Positions 24,951 to 43,957 of a stretch of DNA of 64,000 nucleotides are shown here, piece by piece. The notes beneath the pieces are model-generated. The model was not told where the DNA came from. It was given only the letters and a program-made list of their open reading frames with translations, and ran no database searches. Position numbers and translations under genes: made by a program. This DNA comes from Patescibacteria group bacterium. Its GTDB lineage: Bacteria > Patescibacteriota > Patescibacteriia > Patescibacteriales > JBAZCA01. The stretch spans positions 464 through 64,463 of the forward strand of contig JBAZUL010000009.1 of the NCBI GenBank assembly GCA_041661405.1, in the 5' to 3' direction. Each line of letters begins with the position of its first letter. Positions within the stretch are counted from its first letter, which is position 1.

Positions 24951-26240
24951 TCAATTCTTCAGCCCGATTGTCTTCCTAAACCCAATCCGGTCGCGGGCGA
25001 GATTATCCGCGCCAAACATCAAACCCCGGACAACCGTGTATTCGCCGTATTTGTCGTTTAATTTGTCCATAGCCAGGCTTATGCTCCGCGGTTTCAGGTT
25101 ATCGCGAAAAAGGTTAGCCTGGCCGGAGATTGGCGCGAGCCTCGCAACTGAGACGGCGAGCAATCTCACCGGCAGCAGCATTTCCGTTTTCATGATAAAG
25201 TCATGGATCGGATTAAAAATCTCTTCGGTTGTAAAAACTTTGTCCCTGGGCGTGAATAGCTTATTCAGCCCGCTTACTGTCGGACGGTTTGCCCATCCGC
25301 CCGGTGATGCTATTTTTCCATCGTCCGCTTCGGCCGGCTTATTGCCCGACCATCTCGCGTAACCGGCGTAAAAATTTATTTTTCGCGCTTCTAGCCCGAG
25401 CGAACGCAGCCGACGGCCGGTCTTTTCGCATAACTTGTACATGATTTTTAAAAGATACTTTTTGTCTTTGGTCTTTTTTGGAAGGCAGTATGAATGGCCG
25501 ATGGATTTTGGCAAGGCTTCTTCTCGCGCCACGCTGGAAATCTCCCGGCCGTTAACGTTTGCCCAAAGGTAATATCCGTAGCTTCCAAGCTGTCTTTTTA
25601 TATCAACCGGGTCATAATTTTTTAGCTCCAGCAGATTATTTATCCTCAAAGTCTTAAGCCGCGCCTCCATGCGGTAATTAATTCCCCAAGCGTCCTTCAA
25701 ATCCCGGCCTTTTAAAATCGTTTCCAGATTACCTCTCTCTATTACTATTATTCCGTCTTTTTCCGCGATGTCGCCGGCAAACTTGGCTAAAAACTTAGTA
25801 AAAGAAATGCCGATTGAGCATTTTAGCCATTCGCCGATTTCCGCTTTTATCCTCGCTTTAATTTCCAAAGCGAGGTTTTTTGCTTCCCTATAATTTTTCA
25901 CCCAGCCGGATAAATCCAAAAACGCTTCGTCAATACTGTAAGGCTCTAGCGCATCAGAATACTCGGCTAGGAGTTTAAATATTTTTTCCGTAGTAGACCG
26001 GTATTTAGCCGGTTCGTTTTCCACCAATATCGCGCCAGGATCCAGTTTTAAGGCATCTGACACCCGGCAGCCGGTTTTTATGCCCTTAGCTTTAGCTTCG
26101 GCTGATGACGCGATAATACAGCCGCCGGGAGACAGATAGGCGCAGACTCCGACGGATTTTCCCCGCAAAAAAGGATTGGCCTGCTGTTCCACACTGGCGA
26201 AATAGCTATTCATGTCAATGTGAAGGATAATTCTTTCCAT
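24951..26240 (-). CDS. dinB: Y-family DNA polymerase IV
   Basis: ILHIDMNSYFASVEQ and SIDEAFLDL are the catalytic motifs, and the little-finger region is present. A Gly/Pro-rich insert of about 35 aa lies near residue 300. Confidence 0.9.
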   Translation of the reverse strand: MERIILHIDMNSYFASVEQQANPFLRGKSVGVCAYLSPGGCIIASSAEAKAKGIKTGCRVSDALKLDPGAILVENEPAKYRSTTEKIFKLLAEYSDALEPYSIDEAFLDLSGWVKNYREAKNLALEIKARIKAEIGEWLKCSIGISFTKFLAKFAGDIAEKDGIIVIERGNLETILKGRDLKDAWGINYRMEARLKTLRINNLLELKNYDPVDIKRQLGSYGYYLWANVNGREISSVAREEALPKSIGHSYCLPKKTKDKKYLLKIMYKLCEKTGRRLRSLGLEARKINFYAGYARWSGNKPAEADDGKIASPGGWANRPTVSGLNKLFTPRDKVFTTEEIFNPIHDFIMKTEMLLPVRLLAVSVARLAPISGQANLFRDNLKPRSISLAMDKLNDKYGEYTVVRGLMFGADNLARDRIGFRKTIGLKN

Positions 26241-27896: not shown

Positions 27897-28142
27897 TTAC
27901 TCGCAATAAACCTCCTCCAGCCGCCAGGAAAGGTCGCGGGTAAAAAAGGCCAGGCGGAAAAAATTCAGGCTGTCGGAAACGCTGAAATAATAAATTTTGT
28001 CGTCACCGGATTTTTCGTTGTGCACTAAATTCAGCTTATCAATTTTATAAGTCCGGCCGTGCCATTTAAAAAAAGTCGGCAAAACCTGATTTTGGGAAAA
28101 TTTTACCAGGACATCCACTGGTTCATTGATTTTTTCATGCAT
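27897..28142 (-). CDS. small hypothetical protein (81 aa) divergent from lexA, behind an operator-bearing promoter
   Basis: MHEKINEPVDVLVKFSQNQVLPTFFKWHGRTYKIDKLNLVHNE...SWRLEEVYCE. The F-W-GR-Y...W-L pattern resembles small proteins found beside SOS mutagenesis genes (weak recollection). Confidence 0.55.
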   Translation of the reverse strand: MHEKINEPVDVLVKFSQNQVLPTFFKWHGRTYKIDKLNLVHNEKSGDDKIYYFSVSDSLNFFRLAFFTRDLSWRLEEVYCE

Positions 28143-29024: not shown

Positions 29025-29049
29025 TCAAAAAATCCGCTCTTTCAGCGGA
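29025..29049 (-). terminator. rho-independent terminator of the 29076-30554 gene
   Basis: Stem TCCGCT/AGCGGA is followed on the minus strand by TTTTTTGATTT. Confidence 0.6.
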
Positions 29050-29075: not shown

Positions 29076-30554
29076 TCACAGATAATTTTTTAATTTGGGA
29101 AGAATTATTTTCAGCCAGACAGAAAACTTTTCAGGATTATTTTTTATTTCTTTTTCCAGGTCGCGAAGTTTAATCCATCTCCAATCCTCAACTTCTTCGC
29201 GATTTAAAACCGGCCTGGCGTTATGCTTCCCGATTAAAACGTGATCGTGCTCGTTTTCCTTTAAGCCATGATCAAGCTTAACCCGGTAATTAAAAGAAAA
29301 ACATTCTTTCAGCCTGCAGGAAAACCCCATTTCTTCTTTTAACCTTCTTTCACCGGCGCTGATGACTGATTCGCCCGGTCGCGGGTGCGAACAGCAGGCG
29401 TTAGACCAGGTTCCGCCGGAATGGTATTTTTTCTTCGCTCGTTTTTGAAGGAGAAATTCGCCTTTGGAATTAAATATCACAATTGAAAACGCCCGGTGTA
29501 AGAGTCCTTTTTTATGGGCTTTTATTTTTTCCTCGCTTCCCTTTTCCCGGTTTTTCCCGTTAAGGAGAATAAGTCTTTCAGGGATTGGCGGGGCTTCATC
29601 AAGGTCTTCAAGAAATATCCTTTTTACGCGTTTAAAATTATCGGATTTTTTCAGGTCATAATAAAAGTAATGCATCCGCTCGGCCGATTTTATGAGGTGC
29701 AAACCGTATTCAAGGATTTTTAGCTCATTCTCGTCGTAAGGCACCTTGCCATAACCCCGAAAAAAAACCTGGCGAGCGAGCTTCTGCTTTTTTTTATCCT
29801 GCCAGGACTTAAGATGCCGCCACCACCAGGAAAGCTCAATAAAATCCCAAAGCCAGATTCCGGACCAGGCGTTATCCCAGTCAATTAATATCAGCCCCTG
29901 GCCTTTGGTCCAGATAGTATTTTTTCCGGTCGCGTCGCCATGAACAAGTACCGGCTTAAAGTCTTTTTTAAAAGGCTCTAAAGCCTGCCGAACTCTTAAA
30001 CCCATTTTTTTAGATATCCCTTCTTCAATCAGCCCGTCAGCGATCATCCGTTTTAAAAAACCGTCCGCCCGCTTTAGTTTGTAGCCAATAAAATCATGCG
30101 ACTTGCCTTCGCCTTTCCGCAATGGGCCGAATTTTTTTACTTTAATTTCATGAATTTTACGAAGAATTTTTCCTTTTTCAAAATATGATTTTTTATAGTC
30201 CAAAAGTCCTTTTTTAACCGCTTCTGATCCGTCAATCCCTTCGGCGTACTCGGCAACCATGAACCCGTGCGGAAAATATTTTTTATCCCGGGTAAAATGA
30301 ACCAGCTTGGCGTGCGCTATGCCGCGCCGGCTAAGTTCTTTTTCAATCCATTCCAGCTTGCCGTTTTCCGGCCAGTTTTCAAAATTAAAAACCCGGACAA
30401 TGTAATTTCCAGCTGATGTTTTTATTTTATAGACATGGTTGATTGAGCCGTTTTTTGTTTCTTCCAAACTAAAAATTTTAATTTTTAAGGCTTCCTCAAC
30501 CGCCGATACTATATTTTTTTTCAGTTTTTTCAGGCCGCTTTTGGTATTTTTCAT
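29076..30554 (-). CDS. fusion protein: N-terminal APH/choline-kinase-type phosphotransferase plus C-terminal type 1 isopentenyl-diphosphate delta-isomerase (Nudix fold)
   Basis: The kinase motifs are LVHGDATGKNTIW and LIDWDNAW. The IDI-1 motifs are LLHRAFSIVIFNSKGEFLLQKRAKKKYHSGGTWSNACCSHP and RRLKEEMGF. It is one uninterrupted 492-aa ORF. Confidence 0.75.
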   Translation of the reverse strand: MKNTKSGLKKLKKNIVSAVEEALKIKIFSLEETKNGSINHVYKIKTSAGNYIVRVFNFENWPENGKLEWIEKELSRRGIAHAKLVHFTRDKKYFPHGFMVAEYAEGIDGSEAVKKGLLDYKKSYFEKGKILRKIHEIKVKKFGPLRKGEGKSHDFIGYKLKRADGFLKRMIADGLIEEGISKKMGLRVRQALEPFKKDFKPVLVHGDATGKNTIWTKGQGLILIDWDNAWSGIWLWDFIELSWWWRHLKSWQDKKKQKLARQVFFRGYGKVPYDENELKILEYGLHLIKSAERMHYFYYDLKKSDNFKRVKRIFLEDLDEAPPIPERLILLNGKNREKGSEEKIKAHKKGLLHRAFSIVIFNSKGEFLLQKRAKKKYHSGGTWSNACCSHPRPGESVISAGERRLKEEMGFSCRLKECFSFNYRVKLDHGLKENEHDHVLIGKHNARPVLNREEVEDWRWIKLRDLEKEIKNNPEKFSVWLKIILPKLKNYL

Positions 30555-30632
30555 GCCGGGTTTACGCTTAGTAATCCTTTAACGCCGTCCCTAGCAATTA
30601 TCCCATACCAGGGGCATTAAGTCTATCTCGGC

Positions 30633-31073
30633 TCACAGTTTTGAAGCCGCGGCCAAGCCGGCTTTAATAATCAATTCGGCTGGAACGATTTCATGCGATT
30701 CCCCATCTATTTCCACGGTTCGGCATTCCTCGTCCCCGCAAACGTCACAGCATTGGCTTTGTCCGGTTTTTGCCCTGACTAAGTCCTCCAGCAATTCGCC
30801 GTTAAAGCTGATGCTGTTTGATTTAACCGGATTATTTTTAAATTCTTCCAGCGTCAATTCAGTTTTTCGCAATTCCACTTTTATTTTTAGCGGACTGAGC
30901 GCGCTGGTCAGCCGTTCAACGGCCTCGTTCAGTTCATTTTCAGTTGATCCGCATCTTGGGCAGGTGCTTCCGTCCGATATCAATCTTTGCCAGCTTATTA
31001 TTAAAGTCTTTTCATTTTCTTTTCCAGGTTCGCAGTTCCCGCCCTGACAGCCGCATTGATTTTTTGTATTCAT
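30633..31073 (-). CDS. DUF2703-like cysteine-rich protein
   Basis: The product has CPRCGST...CCDVCGDEC cysteine pairs and lies next to a DUF318/ArsP-type permease, as is typical for this family (recollection). Confidence 0.5.
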   Translation of the reverse strand: MNTKNQCGCQGGNCEPGKENEKTLIISWQRLISDGSTCPRCGSTENELNEAVERLTSALSPLKIKVELRKTELTLEEFKNNPVKSNSISFNGELLEDLVRAKTGQSQCCDVCGDEECRTVEIDGESHEIVPAELIIKAGLAAASKL

Positions 31074-31107
31074 AATATTAATTACGGTTAGCTAATAATC
31101 GCGCGGG

Positions 31108-32085
31108 TTAGTTTAAATTTAATAAGTAATTAAGCATATAGCCGGTAAACATAATTCCGATTCCGACTACGCTCGCGAAAATAATAATCAGCCGGATTTT
31201 CATGACTTTTTTTAAAATCATAAATTCAGGAAGCGACAGAGCCGTAACCGCCATCATAAAAGCCAGAGCCGTTCCCATGGCTACGCCTTTTTCGGTTAAA
31301 GCGCTAACCAAAGGGATTATACCGGCCGCGTTGGAATAAAGCGGAATGCCGATTAAAGTCGCGACAGGCACGGCGTACCATTTATCGGCGCCAGCGTAAC
31401 TCGCGAGAAAATCGGTCGGCGCGTAGCCATGGATCCATGCTCCTAATCCGATACCGGCAATTACATATGGCCAAACTTTTTTAATAATGCTTTTAACGTA
31501 ATTTCGGGCGTACTTCCGCCGATCCTTAAATGTCATTTGCAGTAGCGGCATGGCGTTCTGGCTGGCTCGGTTTTTATTGATAAAATCCGCTAAAAGCCGC
31601 TCAGCATTAAAAAAGCCGATAGCGATCCCGGAAAAAATGGCGATTAAGAGTCCGCTTAAAACATAAAGAACGGCAATTTTCCAGCCGAACATGCTAAAAA
31701 GTAAAACCAGAGCCACCTCATTGATCATGGGTGAAGACACTAAAAACGAAAAGGTCACGCCTAGGGGCACACCGGCTTCCACAAATCCTAAAAACAATGG
31801 CACCGCGCTGCAGGAGCAAAACGGCGTAATTATGCCAAGCAGGCCAGCCAATACATGGCCGAAATATTTATTTTTACGCGACAAAATATTCTGGATTTTC
31901 TTCGGCGGTAAATAGGTGCGGATAAATGACACGATATAAATAATAACCGCTAGCAATAAAAAAACTTTGATCGTGTCAAAGATAAAATAATTAACCGCTT
32001 CTCCTGCCAGGGTTTCAGGCGCCAGGCCGAAAAGGTCAAAAGAAACCCAGTCGGCTAATAATCGCGCGGGGTAAAATATGCTCAT
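31108..32085 (-). CDS. DUF318/ArsP-family permease
   Basis: The 325-aa polytopic protein carries the family motif ITPFCSCSAVPLF. Confidence 0.7.
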   Translation of the reverse strand: MSIFYPARLLADWVSFDLFGLAPETLAGEAVNYFIFDTIKVFLLLAVIIYIVSFIRTYLPPKKIQNILSRKNKYFGHVLAGLLGIITPFCSCSAVPLFLGFVEAGVPLGVTFSFLVSSPMINEVALVLLFSMFGWKIAVLYVLSGLLIAIFSGIAIGFFNAERLLADFINKNRASQNAMPLLQMTFKDRRKYARNYVKSIIKKVWPYVIAGIGLGAWIHGYAPTDFLASYAGADKWYAVPVATLIGIPLYSNAAGIIPLVSALTEKGVAMGTALAFMMAVTALSLPEFMILKKVMKIRLIIIFASVVGIGIMFTGYMLNYLLNLN

Positions 32086-32142
32086 AAATTAATATTGTCA
32101 GATGTAGTTTTTAAAAATGATCCTTTAAGCTCATTTTTATAG

Positions 32143-32164
32143 TTTGCTCGGGGGCTTGGATTCG
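32143..32164. repeat. distal att-like copy of the tRNA-Gln 3' end
   Basis: It is identical over 22 nt to 37731-37752. Weaker similarity extends to 32129. Confidence 0.85.
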
Positions 32165-32239
32165 CCCAAGCATGCGCTGGGCGGTTTAGCGACGAATTCT
32201 TTTTTATTTTTATAGTTTGATATCGTATTATAAGTAATT

Positions 32240-33334
32240 TTATCCTGGAGGTTTATTTAAATATCGCTCTAAAATAGATAAAAATTCTTTTGTATCAAGA
32301 AAATAATTAGGATAAGCCTTTCTAAGATCTTTAGCGGTATCGGCTTCAACAAGGACTATATCTTTATTGAGTTTTTCTTGGTTTGCTTTTTTCTGGGCTT
32401 CTGAATAGGCGAGATTAGCTTCCTCTTCGTTGCTCTTTTCAAAAGTTGTGACAGTTAATTCTTTGGTATCAATGCTCAAACTTAAAAGGTAAAAATGTGA
32501 TTTATGTTTTTGTTCTAGCTGCCCAATTATTCTGACTAATTTTGCCCAGCTTGTAATTTTATCTACAACCCTAAGTTCAGCAGAAAGACGCTTAACCTGA
32601 GAATGTAACTCAAATTTATCTTCGGGCGTATTAAGGACTTTGGGTGTTTTTTCAAAATCAGCAAACACAGAACTTATTAACCTAAAAAAATCTTTCCACT
32701 CTTTTTCTCCCTCGTTAGATTTTAATGCCTGTTTTGTGAAGTGATCCACCGTTTCAATAGCGGTTGCCCAAAAATGTTGAAGTTTTGATCTGACTTGAAT
32801 TTCAATCAGTAAACCGTTATATTTTTTCTGCTTCTTGTCGCTATTATATTTATAAATTAAGTGAATACCCCTATAACCATCAGGCTTGGGGCTAGTAATG
32901 TAATCTTTTTTGTTTTTAAAATGATGTTTAAGGTCGCAGTGTTTACCTTTTATATTTTTATCTACATGGTAATATTCATCACAAAGTTGTATTACTTTTT
33001 TAACATCTGAAAGCACCGCCCTACAGCCACCTATATCTTGCATCTGGGAAAGTTTCATCGTAGGCTCGCGCCCCTCATATTTACGTTGTAATTTTTTAAT
33101 AATTGCGGGCGTACGTTTAAGACGTTGAACAACTAAAGCCCCCTGGTCAACCTGCACAGACACACGCTTTAATCTTATTTTAAAGGTATGCAATGGAAAA
33201 CTATGAGAAGATCTCCAATTATCTAAAATAGCTGTAGCATTTTCCGTGTACTCTTTAGAAGAATTTTTGTTTATTAAGACTTCTCCTGCTTGATTTACCT
33301 CGCTCTTTTTATATTTAATTTCAGTCCAGGCCAT
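32240..33334 (-). CDS. RelA/SpoT (RSH) nucleotide pyrophosphokinase-domain protein with an uncharacterised C-terminal domain of about 150 aa
   Basis: The synthetase motifs appear in order: VQRLKRTPAIIKKL, DIGGCRAVL, PDGYRGIHLIY, EIQVRSKLQHFWATAIE. There is no hydrolase (HD) domain and no separate small partner ORF. Confidence 0.75.
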   Translation of the reverse strand: MAWTEIKYKKSEVNQAGEVLINKNSSKEYTENATAILDNWRSSHSFPLHTFKIRLKRVSVQVDQGALVVQRLKRTPAIIKKLQRKYEGREPTMKLSQMQDIGGCRAVLSDVKKVIQLCDEYYHVDKNIKGKHCDLKHHFKNKKDYITSPKPDGYRGIHLIYKYNSDKKQKKYNGLLIEIQVRSKLQHFWATAIETVDHFTKQALKSNEGEKEWKDFFRLISSVFADFEKTPKVLNTPEDKFELHSQVKRLSAELRVVDKITSWAKLVRIIGQLEQKHKSHFYLLSLSIDTKELTVTTFEKSNEEEANLAYSEAQKKANQEKLNKDIVLVEADTAKDLRKAYPNYFLDTKEFLSILERYLNKPPG

Positions 33335-33352
33335 ACGATTTTTAATAAAAAC

Positions 33353-34051
33353 TTATCTTATTGTAGCATACTGAAAATGCATAGCGTCAAAACTGCCAAT
33401 CCACCTGCCGCCCCACACAAACCCAACATCTTCAAAACATTTTACTAGATCTTCACCCATCTCAAAATTCTTTTGTCCAAATTGGTTCCATTGAGCATTT
33501 AAATCTATCGCGATTCCCCACGAGTGCATTGACCAAGTATTACCACCCCGCATTAAACGTTTATTTAAGCAGCCGCCAAAGGTTTTTATTTTATCGGCTA
33601 AATTTCTGTCAATAACATTTTTAAAGGCGAGTTGGAATTTAGGAGCAACGAGTCTATGGCAAGTAAAACCAAACCAACCTTTATGAGCAAAGGAATAATT
33701 ATCTACATGACCTAATTTATCGGCAAAAGCCGATAAATTACACCTAACCATATTTTGCTCATCCCAGCCAGATAGCTGGTGATTCCCGTAAACTTCAAAA
33801 CAGCGAGCTTGCGAAGGTGGATTATCTAAAGATGGGACTTTTGGAATCTGCTCTTGAAATAATGAACTCCAAGTCTGATCTCCAACTACTCCATCAGCGT
33901 GCAGTATTTTATCAATTTGATATTTTAATACTGCCGCTTCAGTTCTTGGACCGAATACTCCGTCAACAAAGCCAATATTATATCCAATTTCTGATAATTT
34001 TTGCTGTAATTTTTCTACTAATTGACCTTGAGAATTTTTTTGTAGCATCAT
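33353..34051 (-). CDS. peptidoglycan-binding domain plus M15 (VanY/endolysin-type) zinc peptidase, no signal peptide
   Basis: The N-terminus has a PG_binding_1 pattern (LQQKLSEIGYNIGFVDGVFGPRTEAAVLKYQ...DGVVGDQTW). The C-terminus has SMHSWGIAIDL and GFVWGGRW...DAMHFQ metal-ligand motifs. Confidence 0.75.
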   Translation of the reverse strand: MMLQKNSQGQLVEKLQQKLSEIGYNIGFVDGVFGPRTEAAVLKYQIDKILHADGVVGDQTWSSLFQEQIPKVPSLDNPPSQARCFEVYGNHQLSGWDEQNMVRCNLSAFADKLGHVDNYSFAHKGWFGFTCHRLVAPKFQLAFKNVIDRNLADKIKTFGGCLNKRLMRGGNTWSMHSWGIAIDLNAQWNQFGQKNFEMGEDLVKCFEDVGFVWGGRWIGSFDAMHFQYATIR

Positions 34052-34068
34052 AAAAAATTTTTTTATAA

Positions 34069-34470
34069 TTAAATCTTTATATCAAGAGCATTTTTTAGAA
34101 TCTCCATATTTGATGATTTTAATTTATGCTCCCAAATTCTGATAATTTCCCAGCCAATTTTTTTATAATACTTATTTACTTCTTTGTCTCTTTTCTTGTT
34201 TCTTTCAATTTTCGTAATCCAGTATTTTTTATTAGTCGCTGGCAACCGGCAATGTTTTTTGCAACCGTGCCAAAAACATGAATCAAGAAAAATAACCGTT
34301 CTATACTTTTTTAATACTATATCCGGCTTGCCGAAATAATTTTTTACGTTTTTTCTGTATCTGTATCCGGCTTTCCAAAGAGCTTTTCTAAAATTTACTT
34401 CAATTTTGCTATCTTTACTTTTAACTCGGCTCATTATTTCGCTCCTTTGTTTTTTGGAAACCGTATCCAT
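34069..34470 (-). CDS. vsr: very short patch repair endonuclease
   Basis: RSEIMSRVKSKDSKIE...GKPDIVLKKYRTVIFLDSCFWHGC are canonical Vsr motifs. Confidence 0.9.
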   Translation of the reverse strand: MDTVSKKQRSEIMSRVKSKDSKIEVNFRKALWKAGYRYRKNVKNYFGKPDIVLKKYRTVIFLDSCFWHGCKKHCRLPATNKKYWITKIERNKKRDKEVNKYYKKIGWEIIRIWEHKLKSSNMEILKNALDIKI

Positions 34471-34474
34471 ATTT

Positions 34475-35533
34475 TTACCAATCGCTGATTTTTTTAAGTT
34501 TATTATATCCGCGTTTTTTAATAAATGGCAGCAATTCGGAATTAGACGGAAACTCTAGATTAAATTCCCTTTCCACGTCTTTTAATAAATTTTTACCCAA
34601 ATTATTTTTATACTTGTCGCTTAAGCAAATTTTATACCATTGATCTAAATCGTTCATAGTTATTATGCCTTGAATTTTTTCTCCCCAGCCCACTTGAGAC
34701 AATAAATTTTCTATCGCATCTTTTTCAGAGTCAATACAAACTACCACAATTCTATCGGCAGAAATTCCATTCGCGACATCTTCAATCAATTCTGGAGTTA
34801 AAGTTAAATGTTTAACCTGGATAGCCAAACCAAAATTGGCCCACATATCCAAGCCCCTATCGGCCGCGTTGGCTACGCCCGCCCTGTATAGAGCGGCTGG
34901 CAATATTATCTTAGTATTATTGGCATCAATTCCCATAACCATTTTGATAAAAGGCTGAAAATCCTTAAGTAGTTGTTCATCTTTGTTTAAAATTTCCAAC
35001 GTTATTTGCGCGCGCAAAGCTCTTACTATGGCAGAAAACAAAGCATACACTAAAATTTCATATATTTTATCAATGCTTCTTTTTAAACCGGGGTTATTTT
35101 TAAATAAACTTACTAATTTTTTTAAATCAAAGGAAGCTGCCGTTGAACCGCAAATATAATTACTGACTCCATAAACTGACGATAATCTTTCATTTAGAGC
35201 ATTATAAACATAAGCCTCCACCAATCCCCCGCGCGACTTATTGAAGCGACCCAAATCGCGAAGCAACCTAGGCGGTATCGCATTTTCATCAAAAATGTTG
35301 TCTTGAAATTTTTGGCTTGAAGTGCAAACTCTTCCTACTAAACGATTTGAGACCTCATCCCGCCATCTTTTAGAAACATTACGGTATGACTCCATGTCCG
35401 CCAAATCCCAACGTCGTTTATCGATTCTATGGTGATATAAAATTTCGGCGATTTGAATCGGTTTATATAAATGAACGCGCGATTTGCGTATTATTGCGTC
35501 GAGAGCTTTCTTTGAAATATTAATGTTAGGCAT
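34475..35533 (-). CDS. type II restriction endonuclease (HaeII-like by recollection)
   Basis: The gene lies between a C5-methyltransferase and vsr and overlaps the methyltransferase gene by 8 nt. The N-terminal SRVHLYKPIQIAEILYHHR resembles the HaeII family. Confidence 0.5.
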   Translation of the reverse strand: MPNINISKKALDAIIRKSRVHLYKPIQIAEILYHHRIDKRRWDLADMESYRNVSKRWRDEVSNRLVGRVCTSSQKFQDNIFDENAIPPRLLRDLGRFNKSRGGLVEAYVYNALNERLSSVYGVSNYICGSTAASFDLKKLVSLFKNNPGLKRSIDKIYEILVYALFSAIVRALRAQITLEILNKDEQLLKDFQPFIKMVMGIDANNTKIILPAALYRAGVANAADRGLDMWANFGLAIQVKHLTLTPELIEDVANGISADRIVVVCIDSEKDAIENLLSQVGWGEKIQGIITMNDLDQWYKICLSDKYKNNLGKNLLKDVEREFNLEFPSNSELLPFIKKRGYNKLKKISDW

Positions 35534-37301
35534 AAATTTTTTTTGATTTTATATTTAATGAATCAATTGCGCTTAATTCATTTTTCGGCGGCCGACTCAT
35601 CGCTTCTACCATGGCGCGTGCGACTGCCTGAATTTTAGGAATAACCACGCTATTTCCGGCCTGCTTTCTAGCTTGCGTATCAGGGACGACTATTTTATAA
35701 TTATCCGGGAATCCTTGCAGGCGAAACATTTCTCGCGGCGTAAGCCTCCTTTCTCCATTGACGGTTAAGTAATTATACGATCCATTCGCTCTTAGCGCGC
35801 ATGAATATGGGTGCATTCCGATGTTGCCTCCTTTATTTTCATGCCAAACAGAAGGACTTTGTGCGGGCTTTTTGCCCTGTTCTTTCAGGCGAACCTGCAG
35901 TTTTTGCTTAAAGCTATCGCTTAAATAATGTTTTTTATCAATTTTTCTATATGATTCTAAAATTTCGGCTAAAGTTTTTGTCTCCGAGCCGCTTGTCGGG
36001 AATTCAAATGGATAATTTTCTTTAAAGCCAACGATTATTATTCGCTCTCTTTTTTGAGGCACGCCAAAATCAAGACCATTTAAAACTTTATGATGCACAA
36101 AATATCCAAGATTTTTTAAGGCGTCTAAAATCACTTTAAATGTTCGCCCGCCATCATGGGAAGTAAGTTGTTTTACATTTTCCAAAAGAAAAGCTTTCGG
36201 TTGTTTGGCTTTTAGTATTCTCTCCACATCAAAAAATAAAGTTCCGCGAGTATCCGCGAACCCTCGTTTTTTGCCGATTATACTAAATGATTGGCAGGGA
36301 AAACCGCCAGTTAAAATATCATGATCAGGTATTTCATCGGCGGAAATTTTTGTTATATCGCCGTGCGGCCTTTCGCCAAAGTTAAATTCATACATCTCTT
36401 GGCACGGTTTATCAAATTCGGATGTAAAAACGCATTGACCTCCGTTACGTTCAAAGGCAATTCTAATGCCGCCGATACCCGCGAATAAATCTATAAAACG
36501 AAAAGGTTTGTTATTAGAAGATAAATTTTCACATAAATCATTTCCATAAAAATAGGTCTGTCTTGTTTCAGTTAACAGACTGAATAACGAAGCCTGCACT
36601 CCTTCCGCCGCATATTCTATGTTTGATAATTTTTTATTATTTATTTCGCTTAGCGCGCTATGCGCTCCATTCTTTGCGATAATAATAAAATCCACAACAT
36701 TCACTCCCATTAATTGACCCGCTTCAATAATTCTTTTTGCAACTTGCTTGTCCGATTCGCTTGGATTTGCATCTCCGGACGGATGATTATGAACTAAAAT
36801 TATGCCTGCCGCCCGCAACTCTAAACCTAACGCAAAAATTTCTCGCGGATGAACAATATTTTTATCAAGAGTGCCTATAAAAATTGTTTCTTTTTTAATT
36901 AAAGCGTTACGAGCGTTTAAATATAGACAAACCAAATGCTCTTGTTTTTTTTCTTTCAAGTCTGAAGCTAATTTTATCGCATCTTGCGCTGACAACACCA
37001 AATTGTCGGATGCATTTTGTCTGTCATATACTCTTTTTGCCAAAGCCAACACAGAAGTAATTTGCAGAGCTTTTGCTTGACCGATTCCAGAAATTTTCGT
37101 CAAATCGTCAACCGAAGCATTTATAAAATTATCGCCGAATCTTCTAAGTATTTTTTGCGATAAAACTTTAACATTAGTTCCTTTAATTCCGCTGCCAAGT
37201 AATATAGCTAAAAGTTCGCTATCGGTAAGCGCATCAGGCCCTTTTTCCAGAAATTTTTCTCTTGGGCGGTCAAATTTTGGAATATCTTTTAATTTTGTCA
37301 T
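35526..37301 (-). CDS. fusion protein: RadC-like JAB/MPN domain (about residues 1-225) plus DNA (cytosine-5)-methyltransferase
   Basis: The RadC part has DSELLAILLGSG, a HhH segment (ISGIGQAKA) and the JAMM motif ILVHNHPSGDANPSESD. The Dcm part has FIDLFAGIGG (motif I), GFPCQSFS (IV), ENV (VI), QKRERIIIVG (VIII) and GNSVVIP (X). Confidence 0.85.
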   Translation of the reverse strand: MTKLKDIPKFDRPREKFLEKGPDALTDSELLAILLGSGIKGTNVKVLSQKILRRFGDNFINASVDDLTKISGIGQAKALQITSVLALAKRVYDRQNASDNLVLSAQDAIKLASDLKEKKQEHLVCLYLNARNALIKKETIFIGTLDKNIVHPREIFALGLELRAAGIILVHNHPSGDANPSESDKQVAKRIIEAGQLMGVNVVDFIIIAKNGAHSALSEINNKKLSNIEYAAEGVQASLFSLLTETRQTYFYGNDLCENLSSNNKPFRFIDLFAGIGGIRIAFERNGGQCVFTSEFDKPCQEMYEFNFGERPHGDITKISADEIPDHDILTGGFPCQSFSIIGKKRGFADTRGTLFFDVERILKAKQPKAFLLENVKQLTSHDGGRTFKVILDALKNLGYFVHHKVLNGLDFGVPQKRERIIIVGFKENYPFEFPTSGSETKTLAEILESYRKIDKKHYLSDSFKQKLQVRLKEQGKKPAQSPSVWHENKGGNIGMHPYSCALRANGSYNYLTVNGERRLTPREMFRLQGFPDNYKIVVPDTQARKQAGNSVVIPKIQAVARAMVEAMSRPPKNELSAIDSLNIKSKKIYA

Positions 37302-37303
37302 AT

Positions 37304-37511
37304 TTATTTTATCAACTCGTCAACGCCGGTATTTAAACTAGACGCGATTTTTTGAACCGTCTGAATGCTCGGTTTGGTAATAACATCCGATTCTATCTTG
37401 GCGATAGCGCTATAAGGCATTTTAGCAGTTTTAGCTAAAGCGTCTTGGGTCAAATTTTTTTTTCGCTCTCCACTTCTTTATTTTTTCCCCGATTGTTTTC
37501 TTTTCTTCCAT
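37304..37511 (-). pseudogene. XRE-family HTH (R-M controller-like) gene interrupted by a +1 frameshift in an A9 tract
   Basis: MEEKKTIGEKIKKWRAKK is followed by the A9 run (37455-37463). Continuing in the +1 frame gives LTQDALAKTAKMPYSAIAKIESDVITKPSIQTVQKIASSLNTGVDELIK*. The stop lies 2 nt before the methyltransferase ATG. Confidence 0.65.
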
Positions 37512-37513
37512 AG

Positions 37514-37534
37514 CATCTTAGTATATATAAGATG
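37514..37534. promoter_or_regulatory. C-box-like palindrome overlapping the -10 of the HTH gene
   Basis: CATCTTA-gtatata-TAAGATG has 7-bp arms. On the minus strand TATACT is followed by 8 nt and then the ATG. Confidence 0.5.
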
Positions 37535-37693
37535 GCTGATAGCCTACCTCTCATAACAAAAGTATACCATTTCTGCGGCCCCAAATCAACAAAAAATCGG
37601 CCTGAAGAAATAAATCAAAGAGATTAGGACTTAAGTTAAATTAGGAGCAAAATGCCAAAAATAACTTCAAACCGCCGATTATTATCTAACATG

Positions 37694-37717
37694 AAAAAAC
37701 AGGCTCATTTGAGCCTG
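37694..37717 (-). terminator. rho-independent terminator after tRNA-Gln
   Basis: Stem CAGGCTC/GAGCCTG with a 4-nt loop is followed by T6 on the minus strand, 17 nt past the tRNA 3' end. Confidence 0.75.
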
Positions 37718-37730
37718 CTCATTCCTGTAA

Positions 37731-37752
37731 TTTGCTCGGGGGCTTGGATTCG
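37731..37752. repeat. proximal att-like repeat (tRNA-Gln 3' end plus 4 nt)
   Basis: It is identical to 32143-32164. Confidence 0.85.
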
Positions 37753-37805
37753 AACCAAAATTCTCAGGTTCAGAGCCTGATGTCCTGCCGTTAGACGACC
37801 CCCGA
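37735..37805 (-). tRNA. tRNA-Gln (anticodon CTG)
   Basis: A hand-folded 71-nt cloverleaf has acceptor TCGGGGG/CCCCCGA, anticodon stem TCAGG/CCTGA with loop CTCTGAA, and T arm TTTGG-TTCGAAT-CCAAG. Confidence 0.85.
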
Positions 37806-41454: not shown

Positions 41455-43947
41455 CTAAACCCCGATTTTTACCCGCCTTAAAATCTCCGCTTCTATGATA
41501 TGGCGATCCTGCCCGTATTTCAGGCGCGACAGGGATTTTATTTTTCCAGCCAGGTCTTTCCGCTCAATTCCGGGCAGCGGCCAGACCGGTTTTAGCGAAA
41601 AAGGCCGGGTTGGCGAATTATCAATAAGCATTTTCGCGTAGCAGGTGTATTTATCAACATTGATAAGGTCATACTGGTTAAAAACCGGCTCAAATTCCTT
41701 TACCAGTTTTTCCGCGTCTTCGGAACCGACCTTAAAAACAAACCATGATCCGGCGTTGCCGAAAACCGCGTCTTTGATCGTGGTCTCGTTTTTATGGATT
41801 AGCTGGCCGAGGTATTGGTGCGCCATGATGAGATTTAAGCGGTATTTCCGGGCTTCGGACAAAATCGTCGCGACCGAATCGGTGGTAAAATTATGGAACT
41901 CGTCAATGTAAAGATAAAAATCCTTCCTTTCTTCCAAGGGGATGTCGCCGCGGGAAAGCGCGTTCATTAAGACTTTACCGACAAGGATCATGCCGAGCAA
42001 AAAAGAATTCATCTCCCCGATCTGGCCTTTGGACAAATCAACGAGAAGAATTTTTTGCCGGTCCATAACGTCGCGCAGGTTAAAGGAGCTTTTCTGCTGG
42101 CCGATTATCGGCCGCATCATGTCGTTTGAGATGAATGAGGTGAGTTTTGACGTAACATAAGGAACGATGTTTGCGAGCGCCGCGTCCCCCCCGGCTTTTT
42201 CCGCTTCTTTTCTCCAGAAATCAACTACGGTCGGGTCAGAACATTTTAAAAGTTTTTGCCGCCGAAAAGTCGCGTCAGCGAGCACCTTCGGAATTTCCAT
42301 GAGCGTTGAACCCGAATCCGGATCGCTCATGACTAAGAGCATGGCGTTTCTCATATACTGTTCAAAAATCGGACCGCCAGTCGCTTTTAAGTCGTATAGT
42401 TTGTCAAAAATCCGGATCATCTCGTTAATGACAAAAGTTTTTTGCTCGGGATAACGCTCGTCATATTCCATGAGATTTAAAGCCAAAGGCCGCTTTATGT
42501 CCGACGGAGCGAATAAAATTACGTCCTCCACCCGCTCGGGCGGGATGCGCGAGAGGATGTCGGCAATCAAGTCGCCGTGCGGATCAATTACTCCGACACC
42601 TTCGCCGTTTATGATGTCCTGGATGGCGAGACCGGCGAGAAACTGCGATTTACCCACGCCGGATTTACCAATGGCGTACATATGCCGCCTCCGGTCGTCG
42701 CGCTTAATATGGATTTGTTTGGCCATGCCCCGAAAAACGTTATTGCCGACGACGATTCCTTCTTCCGGCGTTCCGGCCGGCGCCGGGGCGTGTTTCGCTA
42801 AAAGCCAGAGGATGTTCGGCGTATCGTTCCAGCGCAGGGGAAAATGGTAAAGCGAGGTAAGCTCTTCGGAATTCAAAAGGATCTTTATCCGCTCGCCGAA
42901 GCGGCGGTGGATAAAATCGTTTATGAGCTGGTTCTGGATAAATTGGTTATTCTGCCACCACCTTAAAACTTTATTGTCAAAATAATTGCCGTATTCGTAA
43001 AAATTATACTGGGAAAAAACCGCGCCGGCGTCCATAAGATGCATTTTCGCGTGCTCCAGTTTTTCCGAACTGATAACCACCCGGATATTCACGTCCAAAC
43101 CGGATTTTGAATTTTTTTCTTCAATGCCTTTTAAAATGTCCTCTTCCATGGCTGAATTCCGTTTTGGCTTATTTTCGTCAAAAGGCTTATTGGGCTTTGA
43201 AGCGCTTACGAGATCCAAGACAAACGATATGACGCTCCCGGTCAAATTAAAATTCAGAGCTTCATGGATCTGCTTGCCACTCATTACTTTGCGGATCACC
43301 TTTCGCGCCCGTTTATGCCATCTGCCGTGGGCGCTCCGGACAACGTACTGGACGGCCATGCCCTCGTCCGGCTCCAGCTTGCTCATAACATTAGTGATGG
43401 AATTCAACGGATCCACTTCCATTTTCTTGTAGGTCTTTAAAGGGAAAATAAAATCTTTCTTCACCCTTAAATAGCCGGCAATCACTTTTGATCCCGGGCT
43501 GAAAATATTGTAGTCTTCAACCGGCTCAATCGCGGCTTCGGGAAAATGGGCCTGGACCTGCTGGAGGAGATAATCGCTCATTCCCCGCGGACAGGCCATG
43601 TAAAAAGAAATTATTTTTTTATGGGCGACAATTTCAAAAGAAAAATGGTCGTTCCGCCCAAAAAACCAGGCCGCGATCCCGCGGCCCGCCCGGAGGCCGC
43701 CGATGGCGGAAAACAAAGTCTCGCATTTGGCGATTTCCTCGTGAAGCTTCTGCACCCGCTGGTAGTTCATTTCTTTCTGGTCTTCCCCTGGTTTTTCCTT
43801 CGGCAGTTTAATCTGGAAAATCGCGTGGTCAAAATAACTGCTGTTTTTGGATAACCAGCGGAAAATTTTTCTCATGCCCAAAACAAAGCCGCATAAAACG
43901 ACCAGCCACAGGATGGAAAATGTCCAGATATTTACGAGCAGTCCCAT
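41455..43947 (-). CDS. membrane-anchored FtsK/HerA-superfamily P-loop ATPase (TraD/VirD4/DUF87-like)
   Basis: An N-terminal TM segment is followed by Walker A (GKSGVGKS), Walker B (FYLYIDEFHNF) and LIMAHQYLGQL. The start was moved to the ATG at 43947, which is preceded by TGTTATAAT-9 nt. Confidence 0.6.
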   Translation of the reverse strand: MGLLVNIWTFSILWLVVLCGFVLGMRKIFRWLSKNSSYFDHAIFQIKLPKEKPGEDQKEMNYQRVQKLHEEIAKCETLFSAIGGLRAGRGIAAWFFGRNDHFSFEIVAHKKIISFYMACPRGMSDYLLQQVQAHFPEAAIEPVEDYNIFSPGSKVIAGYLRVKKDFIFPLKTYKKMEVDPLNSITNVMSKLEPDEGMAVQYVVRSAHGRWHKRARKVIRKVMSGKQIHEALNFNLTGSVISFVLDLVSASKPNKPFDENKPKRNSAMEEDILKGIEEKNSKSGLDVNIRVVISSEKLEHAKMHLMDAGAVFSQYNFYEYGNYFDNKVLRWWQNNQFIQNQLINDFIHRRFGERIKILLNSEELTSLYHFPLRWNDTPNILWLLAKHAPAPAGTPEEGIVVGNNVFRGMAKQIHIKRDDRRRHMYAIGKSGVGKSQFLAGLAIQDIINGEGVGVIDPHGDLIADILSRIPPERVEDVILFAPSDIKRPLALNLMEYDERYPEQKTFVINEMIRIFDKLYDLKATGGPIFEQYMRNAMLLVMSDPDSGSTLMEIPKVLADATFRRQKLLKCSDPTVVDFWRKEAEKAGGDAALANIVPYVTSKLTSFISNDMMRPIIGQQKSSFNLRDVMDRQKILLVDLSKGQIGEMNSFLLGMILVGKVLMNALSRGDIPLEERKDFYLYIDEFHNFTTDSVATILSEARKYRLNLIMAHQYLGQLIHKNETTIKDAVFGNAGSWFVFKVGSEDAEKLVKEFEPVFNQYDLINVDKYTCYAKMLIDNSPTRPFSLKPVWPLPGIERKDLAGKIKSLSRLKYGQDRHIIEAEILRRVKIGV

Positions 43948-43957
43948 ATGGGATATA

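What the first reader, a model, noticed from the sequence alone, without database searches (positions are those of the whole stretch)
29076..30554. APH/choline-kinase-fold phosphotransferase fused to type 1 IPP isomerase
One 492-aa ORF joins a complete small-molecule kinase of the aminoglycoside/choline-kinase fold to a complete Nudix-type IDI. The kinase has the catalytic loop HGDATGKN and the metal-binding IDWD. The IDI has LHRAFS, WSNACCSHP with the catalytic Cys, and the glutamate-containing region. The known isopentenyl-phosphate kinases belong to a different (amino-acid kinase) fold. I do not recognise an APH-fold kinase physically coupled to IDI. In an organism expected to have reduced biosynthesis, this suggests salvage of an isoprenoid alcohol or monophosphate feeding directly into IPP/DMAPP interconversion. 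That interpretation is a hypothesis only.
Basis: partly seen in the sequence, partly recalled or inferred. Interest (0 to 1): 0.55.

Follow-up and report, generated by a model that had tools for sequence, protein, structure and literature searches.

The report
Orphan kinase fused to IPP isomerase
A tiny Patescibacteria (CPR) bacterium carries a real, selectively maintained gene that joins an uncharacterised small-molecule kinase to a standard isoprenoid-precursor isomerase; this hints at, but does not prove, a natural route for salvaging five-carbon isoprenoid alcohols.

Summary
Window 29076-30554 (-) is one 492-aa ORF. It has an N-terminal APH/choline-kinase-fold kinase (aa 1-~320) with all catalytic positions present. 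It has a C-terminal type-1 IPP isomerase (aa ~326-492) that passes NCBIfam's IDI equivalog cutoff and keeps all 13 E. coli IDI catalytic and ligand residues.

The fusion is not an artefact. Two other lineages carry the same 492-aa architecture (92% and 81% identity). Both halves have dN/dS of 0.07-0.14, although synonymous sites are near saturation.

Three further lineages (55-62% identity) have the same kinase and IDI as separate adjacent genes in the order kinase, IDI, Amidohydro_2. On a tree the six linked lineages form one clade. About 15 more distant family loci have no IDI nearby.

The kinase family is small, mostly Patescibacterial, and equidistant from choline, aminoglycoside, macrolide and fructosamine kinases, so homology does not reveal its substrate. 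No MEP, mevalonate or IPK gene lies in the window.

The salvage idea (C5 alcohol to monophosphate, feeding IDI) remains the most specific hypothesis. Its only support is one lineage-restricted linkage. An unrelated kinase fused by chance adjacency is almost as likely.

The parts
29076..30554 (-). Complete 492-aa fusion gene (kinase-IDI)
   Evidence: ORF; domains; purifying selection on both halves.
29595..30554 (-). N-terminal kinase half (aa 1-320). It is an orphan APH/ChoK-fold small-molecule kinase. Family signature: PE-x-GKLEWIE, PVLVHGD-x4-N, LILIDWDNA-SGIW.
   Evidence: PF01636. (invariant G36, H205, D207, N212, D225, D227; K/R at position 54). (AF2 pLDDT 91.3, pTM 0.88). (Foldseek hits to APH-fold kinases).
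29577..29594 (-). Six-codon junction (APPIPE, aa 321-326). It replaces the stop codon, the 1-19 nt spacer and the ATG found in the split-gene relatives. The low-confidence AF2 segment (aa 329-338) lies just downstream of it.
   Evidence: DNA and three-frame comparison with L003 and L006. (pLDDT below 50 at aa 329-338).
29079..29576 (-). C-terminal type-1 isopentenyl-diphosphate Delta-isomerase half (aa ~327-492; Nudix fold)
   Evidence: NF002995 148.5 bits against cutoff 127. (E. coli IDI, E 2e-21). (1nfs, TM 0.73, 36% identity). (13 of 13 functional residues conserved).
29033..29049 (-). Terminator-like hairpin plus T-run, 27 nt after the stop codon (consensus match only)
   Evidence: The number of such sites in the region is not above the shuffled expectation.
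30597..30625 (-). Promoter-like site (TAGACT-17-GATAAT with an upstream TG) in the 78-nt spacer before the ATG (consensus match only)
   Evidence: The match is at background frequency, so this is weak evidence.

Best explanation
SHOWN. The gene is a real bifunctional fusion in a Patescibacteria bacterium. Its C-terminal half is a catalytically complete type-1 IDI, which interconverts IPP and DMAPP. Its N-terminal half is a catalytically complete ATP-dependent kinase of the APH/choline-kinase fold, from a small family found mainly in Patescibacteria that has no characterised member. The fusion arose once. In the ancestor, kinase, IDI and an Amidohydro_2 gene lay head to tail in an operon-like arrangement. 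In one sub-lineage the stop codon, spacer and start between kinase and IDI became a six-residue linker, and the Amidohydro_2 gene was lost.

INFERRED. The kinase phosphorylates the hydroxyl group of a C5 isoprenoid alcohol (isopentenol or prenol), or less likely the monophosphate IP/DMAP. This traps a membrane-permeable hemiterpene as IP/DMAP. A separate IPK-type kinase would complete the diphosphate, and the fused IDI would balance IPP against DMAPP. That would be a natural counterpart of the engineered isopentenol utilisation pathway (choline kinase + IPK + IDI). It would also be an APH-fold analogue of the IPK/IDI-I gene pairs already noted in CPR genomes.
For: Fusion in three diverged lineages and tight adjacency (1-32 nt, same strand) in two of three further lineages, all carrying a bona fide IDI. 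Both halves are under strong purifying selection while the reading frame is kept. The kinase active site is intact across the family. The kinase belongs to no known-substrate subfamily, so no competing assignment exists. At least 36 of the roughly 76 multi-domain IDI hits carry Pfam domains of known isoprenoid enzymes (polyprenyl synthase, phytoene synthase, mevalonate-diphosphate decarboxylase, IspH). A kinase of the same fold, yeast choline kinase, phosphorylates isopentenol and prenol in the engineered pathway, which also uses IPK and IDI (PMC8701039). [quoted passage not shown] An overlapping IDI-IPK pair was seen directly in L038.
Against: The linkage has a single origin and covers only kinases at least 55% identical to this one. 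The sister clade (44-48% identity) and all more distant members, about 15 loci, show no IDI or other isoprenoid gene in their flanks. In one linked lineage (L023) a K+ channel gene sits between kinase and IDI. IDI-I is also fused to partners with no obvious isoprenoid role, such as HhH-GPD, RuvX and tRNA-binding domains. Other members of the kinase family are fused to or adjacent to GNAT acetyltransferases, or clustered with other APH paralogues, which is the pattern of accessory or xenobiotic-modifying genes. No IPK, MVA, MEP or prenyltransferase gene lies near any linked locus or in the 64-kb window. The family is rare: a pattern-based scan of 185,579 species genomes found 9 loci. That does not fit a general CPR solution. 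No natural APH-fold isoprenoid kinase is known (own knowledge; none was found).
Confidence: 0.4

Rival explanations
1. The fusion is functionally unrelated. The kinase acts on a non-isoprenoid small molecule, such as an antibiotic or xenobiotic, an amino sugar, or a head-group alcohol. It merely happened to lie upstream of IDI in one lineage of a compact genome. Loss of the stop codon joined two independently folding enzymes, and each half is kept for its own function.
For: The linkage has a single origin and the local synteny is inherited (DnaX ... kinase-IDI ... LexA). No IDI lies near about 15 other family members. A K+ channel gene is inserted between the two genes in L023. The family has variable neighbours: one GNAT fusion (P0232), one GNAT adjacency (P0006), and three APH paralogues clustered in a Daviesbacteria genome. 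IDI tolerates many unrelated fusion partners. Full-length AF2 pTM is 0.67 against 0.88 for the kinase alone, with a disordered segment after the junction, so there is no evidence of a fixed inter-domain interface. Divergent aminoglycoside-modifying-like genes are reported to be common in CPR (PMC8651080).
Against: Fusions and tight operon pairs in prokaryotes usually join functionally related proteins (established comparative-genomics knowledge). The pair stayed together through divergence to 55% kinase identity and was then fused and kept. The kinase scores far below every resistance-kinase model (APH(3') 12.9 bits against cutoff 205). The two GNAT partners are not homologous to each other beyond the fold, so no alternative conserved link exists.
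Confidence: 0.38
2. The kinase is isoprenoid-related but has a different substrate. It could be a non-homologous replacement for a mevalonate-pathway kinase (mevalonate or phosphomevalonate), possibly working with the co-operonic Amidohydro_2 enzyme (a family that includes decarboxylases and lactonases). Or it could be a kinase for longer prenols such as farnesol, geranylgeraniol or undecaprenol taken from the host.
For: Kinase, IDI and Amidohydro_2 are arranged tightly, with overlapping stop and start codons, in all three split lineages. IDI-I normally sits at the end of MVA operons (L036).
Against: Amidohydro_2 is absent from the window and from the other fused lineages, so it is dispensable. 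It has no characterised close relative (best PDB hit 3irs, uncharacterised, E 1e-5). Known prenol kinases are CTP-dependent membrane proteins of another family (PMC10849223, listed, and own knowledge). This kinase model is a soluble globular protein.
Confidence: 0.12
3. Assembly or sequencing artefact: two separate genes were joined by an indel error.
For: None found. Split versions of the pair do exist in related genomes.
Against: The same 492-aa ORF occurs in independent assemblies from different samples at 81-95% identity. The linker is conserved (APPIPE / TAPYPE) and dN/dS is about 0.1.
Confidence: 0.02

Closest known systems
Type-1 isopentenyl-diphosphate Delta-isomerase (IDI-I; E. coli Idi, PDB 1NFS/1HX3)
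   Same: The C-terminal half has 36% identity and TM 0.73 to E. coli IDI and passes NCBIfam NF002995. All metal ligands (H25, H32, H69, E114, E116), the catalytic C67, E116 and Y104, W161, and the diphosphate-binding K21, R51, K55 and R83 are conserved.
   Different: It is covalently joined to a 320-aa kinase at its N-terminus. It is not embedded in an MVA operon or next to IPK, unlike its nearest stand-alone relatives.
Choline kinase LicA (S. pneumoniae, PDB 4R77/4R7B) and the wider APH/ChoK-like kinase superfamily (Pfam PF01636, clan PKinase)
   Same: It shares the bilobal fold, the catalytic loop H-x-D-x4-N, the metal-binding D in IDW(D/E), a beta3 basic residue and a conserved acidic residue in the alpha-C region. 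LicA gives the highest sequence identity among the structural hits (17-21%).
   Different: The window protein has no Pfam Choline_kinase hit, and only 5 of 20 relatives have a weak one. The family has its own signature (PE-x-GKLEWIE, G-x-G loop at 148-150, SGIW). It is equally close to APH(4), APH(9), APH(2''), Mph(2'), FN3K and YtaA, so it belongs to none of these subfamilies.
Engineered isopentenol utilisation pathway (S. cerevisiae choline kinase + A. thaliana IPK + IDI)
   Same: It combines an APH/ChoK-fold kinase with IDI. In the engineered pathway the kinase makes IP/DMAP from the C5 alcohols and IDI balances the products (PMC8701039).
   Different: That pathway is synthetic and relies on a promiscuous side activity. 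It needs IPK, which was not found near this gene. No activity has been shown for the protein studied here.
IPK/IDI-I gene pairs of CPR and archaea (amino-acid-kinase-fold IPK, PF00696)
   Same: These are two-gene kinase + IDI-I modules, reported as typical in CPR even without other MVA genes (PMC6107057). An overlapping IDI-IPK pair was seen in L038.
   Different: The kinase here has an unrelated fold, lies upstream rather than downstream of IDI, and shares no flanking synteny with IPK-IDI loci. Nothing shows that it phosphorylates a phosphate monoester.
Other IDI-I fusion proteins (MVD-IDI of Coxiella; IDI fused to polyprenyl synthase, phytoene synthase or IspH)
   Same: IDI-I is joined to another enzyme in one polypeptide. 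This is common in public data.
   Different: Those partners are known isoprenoid enzymes. Here the partner is an orphan kinase. Only this one 50%-identity cluster of the kinase family carries IDI.

Membership tests
Type-1 IDI (Nudix superfamily) | Sequence score above a curated equivalog threshold | tested here: met
   NF002995 scores 148.5 bits against cutoff 127. TIGR02150 scores 100.3, just under its cutoff of 105.8.
Type-1 IDI (Nudix superfamily) | Catalytic Cys67 and Glu116 (with Tyr104 and Trp161), and the metal ligands His25, His32, His69, Glu114, Glu116 and Glu87 | tested here: met
   All are conserved: H347, H353, C388, H390, E408, Y423, E433, E435 and W480.
Type-1 IDI (Nudix superfamily) | Fold matching solved IDI structures | tested here: met
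   Foldseek hit to 1nfs_A: E 3e-12, TM (target-normalised) 0.73, rmsd 1.8 A, 36% identity.
Type-1 IDI (Nudix superfamily) | IPP/DMAPP isomerase activity | not testable with these tools
   This needs an enzyme assay.
APH/ChoK-like small-molecule kinase superfamily (PF01636) | Pfam gathering threshold and bilobal kinase fold | tested here: met
   PF01636 scores 62.7 bits against cutoff 23.2. Foldseek TM is 0.55-0.73 to APH(4), LicA, APH(2'') and FN3K.
APH/ChoK-like small-molecule kinase superfamily (PF01636) | Catalytic loop H-x-D-x4-N, metal-binding Asp, and beta3 Lys/Arg | tested here: met
   H205, D207, N212, D225 and D227 are invariant in 20 of 20 members. Position 54 is R in 10 and K in 10.
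Choline/ethanolamine kinase (PF01633; LicA) | Match to the choline-kinase profile | tested here: not met
   The window protein has no PF01633 hit. Only 5 of 20 family members hit it, best E 4.7e-7. The LicA profile E-value is 7.6e-4.
Aminoglycoside/macrolide resistance kinases (APH(3'), APH(2''), APH(4), Mph) | Score above the NCBIfam resistance-model cutoffs | tested here: not met
   NF033068 APH(3') scores 12.9 bits against cutoff 205, and no other resistance model was reported. Identity to the solved enzymes is only 12-16%.
Homoserine kinase type II (ThrB2, TIGR00938) | Match to the ThrB2 model and linkage to threonine synthase | tested here: not met
   Neither the window protein nor P0004, P0007 or P0070 hits ThrB2. 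ThrC occurs near the kinase only in L003, separated from it by DnaX, and was not found in the window.
Isopentenyl phosphate kinase (amino-acid-kinase fold, PF00696) | AA_kinase fold | tested here: not met
   There is no PF00696 match and the fold is APH-type. Any IPK-like role would be by analogy, not homology.
Natural isopentenol-utilisation-type salvage module (hypothetical) | Kinase activity on isopentenol, prenol, IP or DMAP; a partner IPK; absence of de novo MVA/MEP in the genome | not testable with these tools
   Only 64 kb of the genome is available and it has no pathway genes. The rest needs the full MAG and biochemistry.

The most novel reading that the evidence does not exclude
The kinase half is a dedicated natural hemiterpene kinase of the APH fold, acting on isopentenol/prenol or on IP/DMAP. 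With the fused IDI, and an IPK encoded elsewhere, it would give some Patescibacteria a natural isopentenol utilisation pathway for scavenging C5 isoprenoid units from hosts or the environment. That would be the first natural enzyme of this kind. It would help explain how CPR bacteria without MVA or MEP pathways obtain IPP for undecaprenyl phosphate, and what the enigmatic CPR IPK/IDI-I modules are for.
Probability: 0.25. Interest if true: 0.75.

Novelty: new variant of a known kind. Interest (0 to 1): 0.45.

Why it matters
All bacteria with peptidoglycan need IPP and DMAPP for the lipid carrier undecaprenyl phosphate. Yet many CPR lineages are reported to lack most mevalonate genes and to have MEP genes only sparsely (PMC6107057). 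No dedicated natural C5-alcohol kinase has been identified, although physiological data suggest one exists and metabolic engineers currently borrow a promiscuous yeast choline kinase (PMC8701039).

A kinase of that same fold, physically fused to IDI in a reduced-genome bacterium, is a concrete and cheap candidate to test. If it is active, it would be a better enzyme for engineered terpenoid production and evidence for isoprenoid salvage in episymbiotic bacteria. If it is inactive, the case is a useful warning that Rosetta-stone fusions in compact genomes can join unrelated enzymes.

Tried and rejected
1. Frameshift or assembly artefact. Rejected, because independent assemblies carry the same ORF and dN/dS is about 0.1.

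2. Assigning a substrate by homology. The Pfam, NCBIfam, PDB-sequence profile and two Foldseek searches all place the kinase at equal distance from every characterised APH-fold subfamily.

3. A conserved GNAT partner, suggesting an AAC/APH-like resistance pair. P0232 is a GNAT-kinase fusion and P0006 has an adjacent GNAT, but the two GNATs show no similarity to each other and no other locus has one.

4. APH-fold homoserine kinase paired with threonine synthase. ThrC is present only in L003 and is not adjacent. The Daviesbacteria PALP gene is not ThrC. The family does not hit the ThrB2 model.

5. Recurrent ABC-exporter pairs near distant family members (six loci). They lie 2-4 kb away, often convergent, and occur mainly in related Doudnabacteria genomes. 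I judged this to be inherited synteny, not a functional link.

6. In-place displacement of IPK by the APH kinase. The nearest stand-alone IDI-I genes lie in a full MVA operon, next to IPK in an archaeon, or alone near MiaA. None shares synteny with this locus.

7. Pathway inventory. Thirty further window ORFs were scanned with Pfam and showed no MEP, MVA, IPK or prenyltransferase gene. About 20 mostly short ORFs were not scanned.

8. Literature. No paper in the held library combines IDI, aminoglycoside phosphotransferase and fusion. No natural C5-alcohol kinase was found.

9. Inter-domain interface from AF2. Only pLDDT and pTM are returned. The lower pTM of the full-length model (0.67 against 0.88) suggests a flexible arrangement, but it is not decisive.
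Full report
1. THE OBSERVATION

Window 29076-30554 (minus strand) is a single ATG-initiated ORF of 492 aa. Pfam finds an APH phosphotransferase domain at aa 33-247 (E 5.6e-17) and a NUDIX domain at aa 352-479 (E 1.6e-18). NCBIfam's IDI equivalog NF002995 scores 148.5 bits against a cutoff of 127 over aa 326-482. TIGR02150 scores 100.3, just below its cutoff of 105.8. The best solved relatives of the C-terminal half are E. coli, Salmonella and human IDI (E 2e-21 to 1e-15).

An alignment with E. coli IDI shows that all 13 residues I checked are conserved: K21, H25, H32, R51, K55, C67, H69, R83, E87, Y104, E114, E116 and W161, which map to K343, H347, H353, R372, K376, C388, H390, R404, E408, Y423, E433, E435 and W480. 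The identity of those functional residues is from my own knowledge of the E. coli enzyme.

In the kinase half, the glycine-loop G36, the catalytic loop H205-x-D207-x4-N212 and the metal-binding D225/D227 are invariant in 20 of 20 family members. The beta3 basic residue is R in ten and K in ten.

2. THE FUSION IS REAL AND MAINTAINED

A search of 5.8 billion proteins found two other 492-aa proteins with the same architecture: P0001 (92% identity) and P0002 (81% identity). NCBI annotates P0002 simply as isopentenyl-diphosphate Delta-isomerase of a Patescibacteria group MAG. Their contigs come from different samples. A fourth partial copy is in L021, and the GTDB representative contig is JBAZCA010000002.1.

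All three full-length genes are 1479 nt with no internal stop. At the junction only frame 0 is open. Nei-Gojobori dN/dS is 0.07-0.14 for each half. Synonymous divergence is 1.0-2.2 between the window and P0002. The frame has therefore been kept by selection over long divergence. AF2 models both halves confidently (mean pLDDT 89.6). The only low-confidence internal segment is aa 329-338, just after the junction.

3. ORIGIN OF THE FUSION

Stand-alone kinases of about 320 aa exist. The three closest are P0003 (62% identity), P0004 (59%) and P0005 (55%). Each lies just upstream, on the same strand, of a separate gene of about 170 aa. That gene passes both NCBIfam IDI cutoffs (163 and 160 bits on NF002995; 116.6 and 115.5 on TIGR02150) and is 58-70% identical to the window's IDI half.

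The spacing is 1 nt in L006 and 19-31 nt in L003/L004. An Amidohydro_2 gene follows, overlapping the IDI stop codon in L006. LexA lies convergent downstream in the fused loci and in the two split loci whose contigs extend that far. DnaX lies directly upstream in the split loci, and further upstream (beyond patatin and the ArsP genes) in the fused ones.

At the DNA level, the fused genes have a six-codon linker (APPIPE, or TAPYPE in P0002) where the split genes have a stop, a spacer and an ATG. In the split genes the kinase and IDI are in different frames, so an indel was required. In the fused lineages the Amidohydro_2 gene is gone.

A neighbour-joining tree of 73 family members puts the three adjacent-gene and three fused lineages in one clade, with the fused ones nested as a sub-clade. 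There was therefore one juxtaposition event followed by one fusion event.

4. HOW FAR THE LINKAGE EXTENDS

I fetched every locus I could for the kinase family: nine from 185,579 species genomes, twelve from metagenomes, and more through exact-protein look-ups. I then screened all of them with tblastn for IDI.

IDI is present only where the kinase is at least 55% identical to the window's kinase. There is no IDI in the available flanks of:
- the sister clade: P0007 (45%, next to FtsW and YceG), P0006 (46%, between a GNAT gene and a DUF2000 gene), P0106 (48%, next to BipA), and L025 (47%);
- the Doudnabacteria, Saccharibacteria, Daviesbacteria and soil members at 31-42% identity.

The NUDIX gene 2.4 kb from the Doudnabacteria kinase is NAD-diphosphatase-like, not an IDI. 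An exhaustive HMMER search of 1.84 billion cluster representatives found 109 family representatives at E <= 1e-30. Among the best 150 hits, only the cluster containing this fusion carries IDI. One distant member, P0232, is instead fused to a GNAT acetyltransferase.

5. WHAT THE KINASE IS

It is a catalytically complete APH/ChoK-fold kinase with its own signature: PE-x-GKLEWIE, a G-x-G loop at 148-150, PVLVHGD-x4-N and LILIDWDNA-SGIW.

A family profile against all PDB sequences gives nothing better than E 7e-4. The top hits are an uncharacterised APH-family protein (7s3l), LicA choline kinase (4r77), and 3dxp, which is deposited as a putative acyl-CoA dehydrogenase / putative aminoglycoside phosphotransferase. 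Foldseek with the kinase-only model (pLDDT 91.3, pTM 0.88) returns APH(4)-Ia, LicA, APH(9), YtaA, fructosamine-3-kinase, APH(2'') and macrolide kinases. All have TM 0.55-0.73 and 12-21% identity.

No NCBIfam resistance, choline, homoserine or protein-kinase model comes anywhere near its cutoff. The kinase is therefore an orphan. Equally, homology gives no positive clue to its substrate.

6. OTHER FUNCTIONAL LEADS THAT FAILED

- GNAT. The GNAT domain fused in P0232 and the GNAT gene adjacent to P0006 are not similar to each other, and no other locus has one.
- Threonine synthase. A real ThrC lies near the kinase in L003 only, separated from it by DnaX. It is missing from the window, and the family does not match the ThrB2 model.
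- ABC exporters. Pairs recur 2-4 kb from distant members, mostly in related genomes.
- IPK displacement. The nearest stand-alone IDI-I genes lie at the end of a complete HMGS-HMGR-MVK-PMVK-MVD-UbiA operon (L036), in an overlapping IDI-IPK pair next to prenyltransferases in an archaeon (L038), or alone near MiaA in a Parcubacterium (L037). None shares synteny with this locus, so there is no sign that the APH kinase replaced IPK in place.
- Window inventory. Pfam scans of 30 further window ORFs (about 20 mostly short ORFs were not scanned) found no MEP, MVA, IPK or prenyltransferase gene. The hits include FtsW, GyrB, ribosomal protein L25, glutamate dehydrogenase, an HlyD-type membrane-fusion protein, glycosyltransferases, a histidine kinase and a HaeII restriction-modification system. 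DnaX, LexA, DinB and the RND pump are assigned from homologous genes in the related loci.

7. INTERPRETATION

What is shown: a genuine two-enzyme polypeptide with an active-looking IDI-I and an active-looking orphan kinase. It was formed by fusion of neighbouring operon genes and has been kept under purifying selection.

What is inferred: the kinase's substrate.

The case for an isoprenoid substrate rests on the linkage itself and on context from the literature:
- At least 36 of the roughly 76 multi-domain IDI hits carry Pfam domains of known isoprenoid enzymes.
- A kinase of the same fold (yeast choline kinase) phosphorylates isopentenol and prenol in the engineered isopentenol utilisation pathway, which also needs IPK and IDI (PMC8701039).
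- That review notes physiological hints of natural C5-alcohol phosphorylation with no dedicated enzyme known.

APH-fold enzymes phosphorylate hydroxyl groups (own knowledge). So the alcohol-to-monophosphate step is more plausible than diphosphate formation, and a separate IPK would be required.

Against this:
- The linkage has a single origin in a narrow clade.
- One linked lineage has a K+ channel gene inserted between the two genes.
- Other family members associate with GNATs or with other APH paralogues, in the way accessory or xenobiotic-modifying genes do.
- IDI also fuses to clearly unrelated partners.
- The family is rare.
- No partner IPK was seen near any linked locus.

My estimates are about 0.40 for the C5 salvage reading, 0.38 for an unrelated substrate, 0.12 for another isoprenoid-related substrate, and 0.02 for an artefact.

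8. COMPARISON AND NOVELTY

The IDI half is an ordinary member of IDI-I. The kinase half is a member of the APH/ChoK superfamily, but of none of its characterised subfamilies. The APH-IDI architecture is present in public databases, where it is annotated only as IDI. I found no paper describing it.

I rate it a new variant of a known kind: an IDI fusion protein with a new, orphan partner. Interest is moderate (0.45). The hypothesis it suggests is attractive and cheap to test, but the present evidence is one lineage-restricted gene fusion.

Noticed in passing
window ~29080-29500 (3' part of the fusion gene): Divergence inside the gene is mosaic. Nucleotide identity between the window and P0001 falls from 0.96 at the 5' end to 0.75 at the 3' end, while identity between P0001 and P0002 rises from about 0.8 to 0.89. 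dS between the window and P0001 is 0.22 for the kinase half and 1.12 for the IDI half. This suggests homologous recombination with a breakpoint inside the IDI half, around gene nt 1050-1200.
   Followed up: partly
window ~31100-37730, next to tRNA-Gln at 37734-37805: This segment has no nucleotide homology to the otherwise syntenic loci L035 and L001. From about 32 kb onward its G+C is low (0.36-0.38, against 0.42-0.49 in most of the window). It carries a RelA/SpoT-like gene (32240-33334), a 232-aa ORF (33353-34051) not scanned against families, a HaeII restriction endonuclease (34475-35533), and a RadC-JAB domain fused to a C5 cytosine methylase (35526-37301). It is probably an integrated island at the tRNA gene.
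   Followed up: partly
L023:2186-2540 (between the kinase and IDI of P0003): A 117-aa ORF with a TVGYGD selectivity filter (Pfam Ion_trans_2, E 4e-25), which is a minimal K+ channel, is inserted between the kinase and IDI genes in this one lineage.
   Followed up: yes
L003:11532-12314, L006:1831-2613, L023:3037-3459: An Amidohydro_2 (PF04909) gene follows IDI in all three split-gene lineages and overlaps the IDI stop codon in L006. It is absent from the window and from the other fused lineages. Its best solved relative is an uncharacterised protein (3irs, E 1e-5). Its role, if any, alongside the kinase and IDI is unknown.
   Followed up: partly
P0232 (480 aa, from the exhaustive search): A distant member of the same kinase family (24% identity, keeps the WPEDGKL motif) is fused to an N-terminal GNAT acetyltransferase. 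P0006 (46% identity) has an unrelated GNAT gene 21 nt upstream and a DUF2000 gene downstream.
   Followed up: yes
L010 / L019 (Candidatus Daviesbacteria chromosome CP066688.1, ~784.5-801.5 kb): Three APH-fold paralogues cluster within 5 kb. One belongs to this family (P0070). One is weakly APH(2'')/APH(3')-like. One is weakly homoserine-kinase-like (71 bits against cutoff 271). A PALP enzyme, DUF5680 and a serine hydrolase lie among them.
   Followed up: partly
window 27897-28142 (-); L003:13160-13405; L006:3412-3657; L035:12421-12666: A conserved 81-aa ORF with no Pfam hit on record lies beside the LexA gene in the window and in at least three of the related loci. DinB (window 24951-26240) is also nearby. 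This may be a small SOS-related gene set. LexA boxes were not searched for.
   Followed up: no
window 30633-32085 (-): Directly upstream of the fusion gene are a Cys-rich 146-aa protein and an ArsP-type permease. Their homologues in L001 and L035 are called DUF2703 and ArsP_1. In the related fused loci these are preceded by ArsR and a thioredoxin-like gene. This cluster is absent from the split-gene loci, where DnaX lies directly upstream of the kinase.
   Followed up: partly
window 41455-43986 (-): An 843-aa protein with weak matches to T4SS coupling proteins (TrwB/VirD4-like) lies next to two GT4 glycosyltransferases. The same arrangement is conserved in L003 and L035 (there with DUF8128). 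It probably belongs to the Patescibacteria type IV secretion-like machinery.
   Followed up: no
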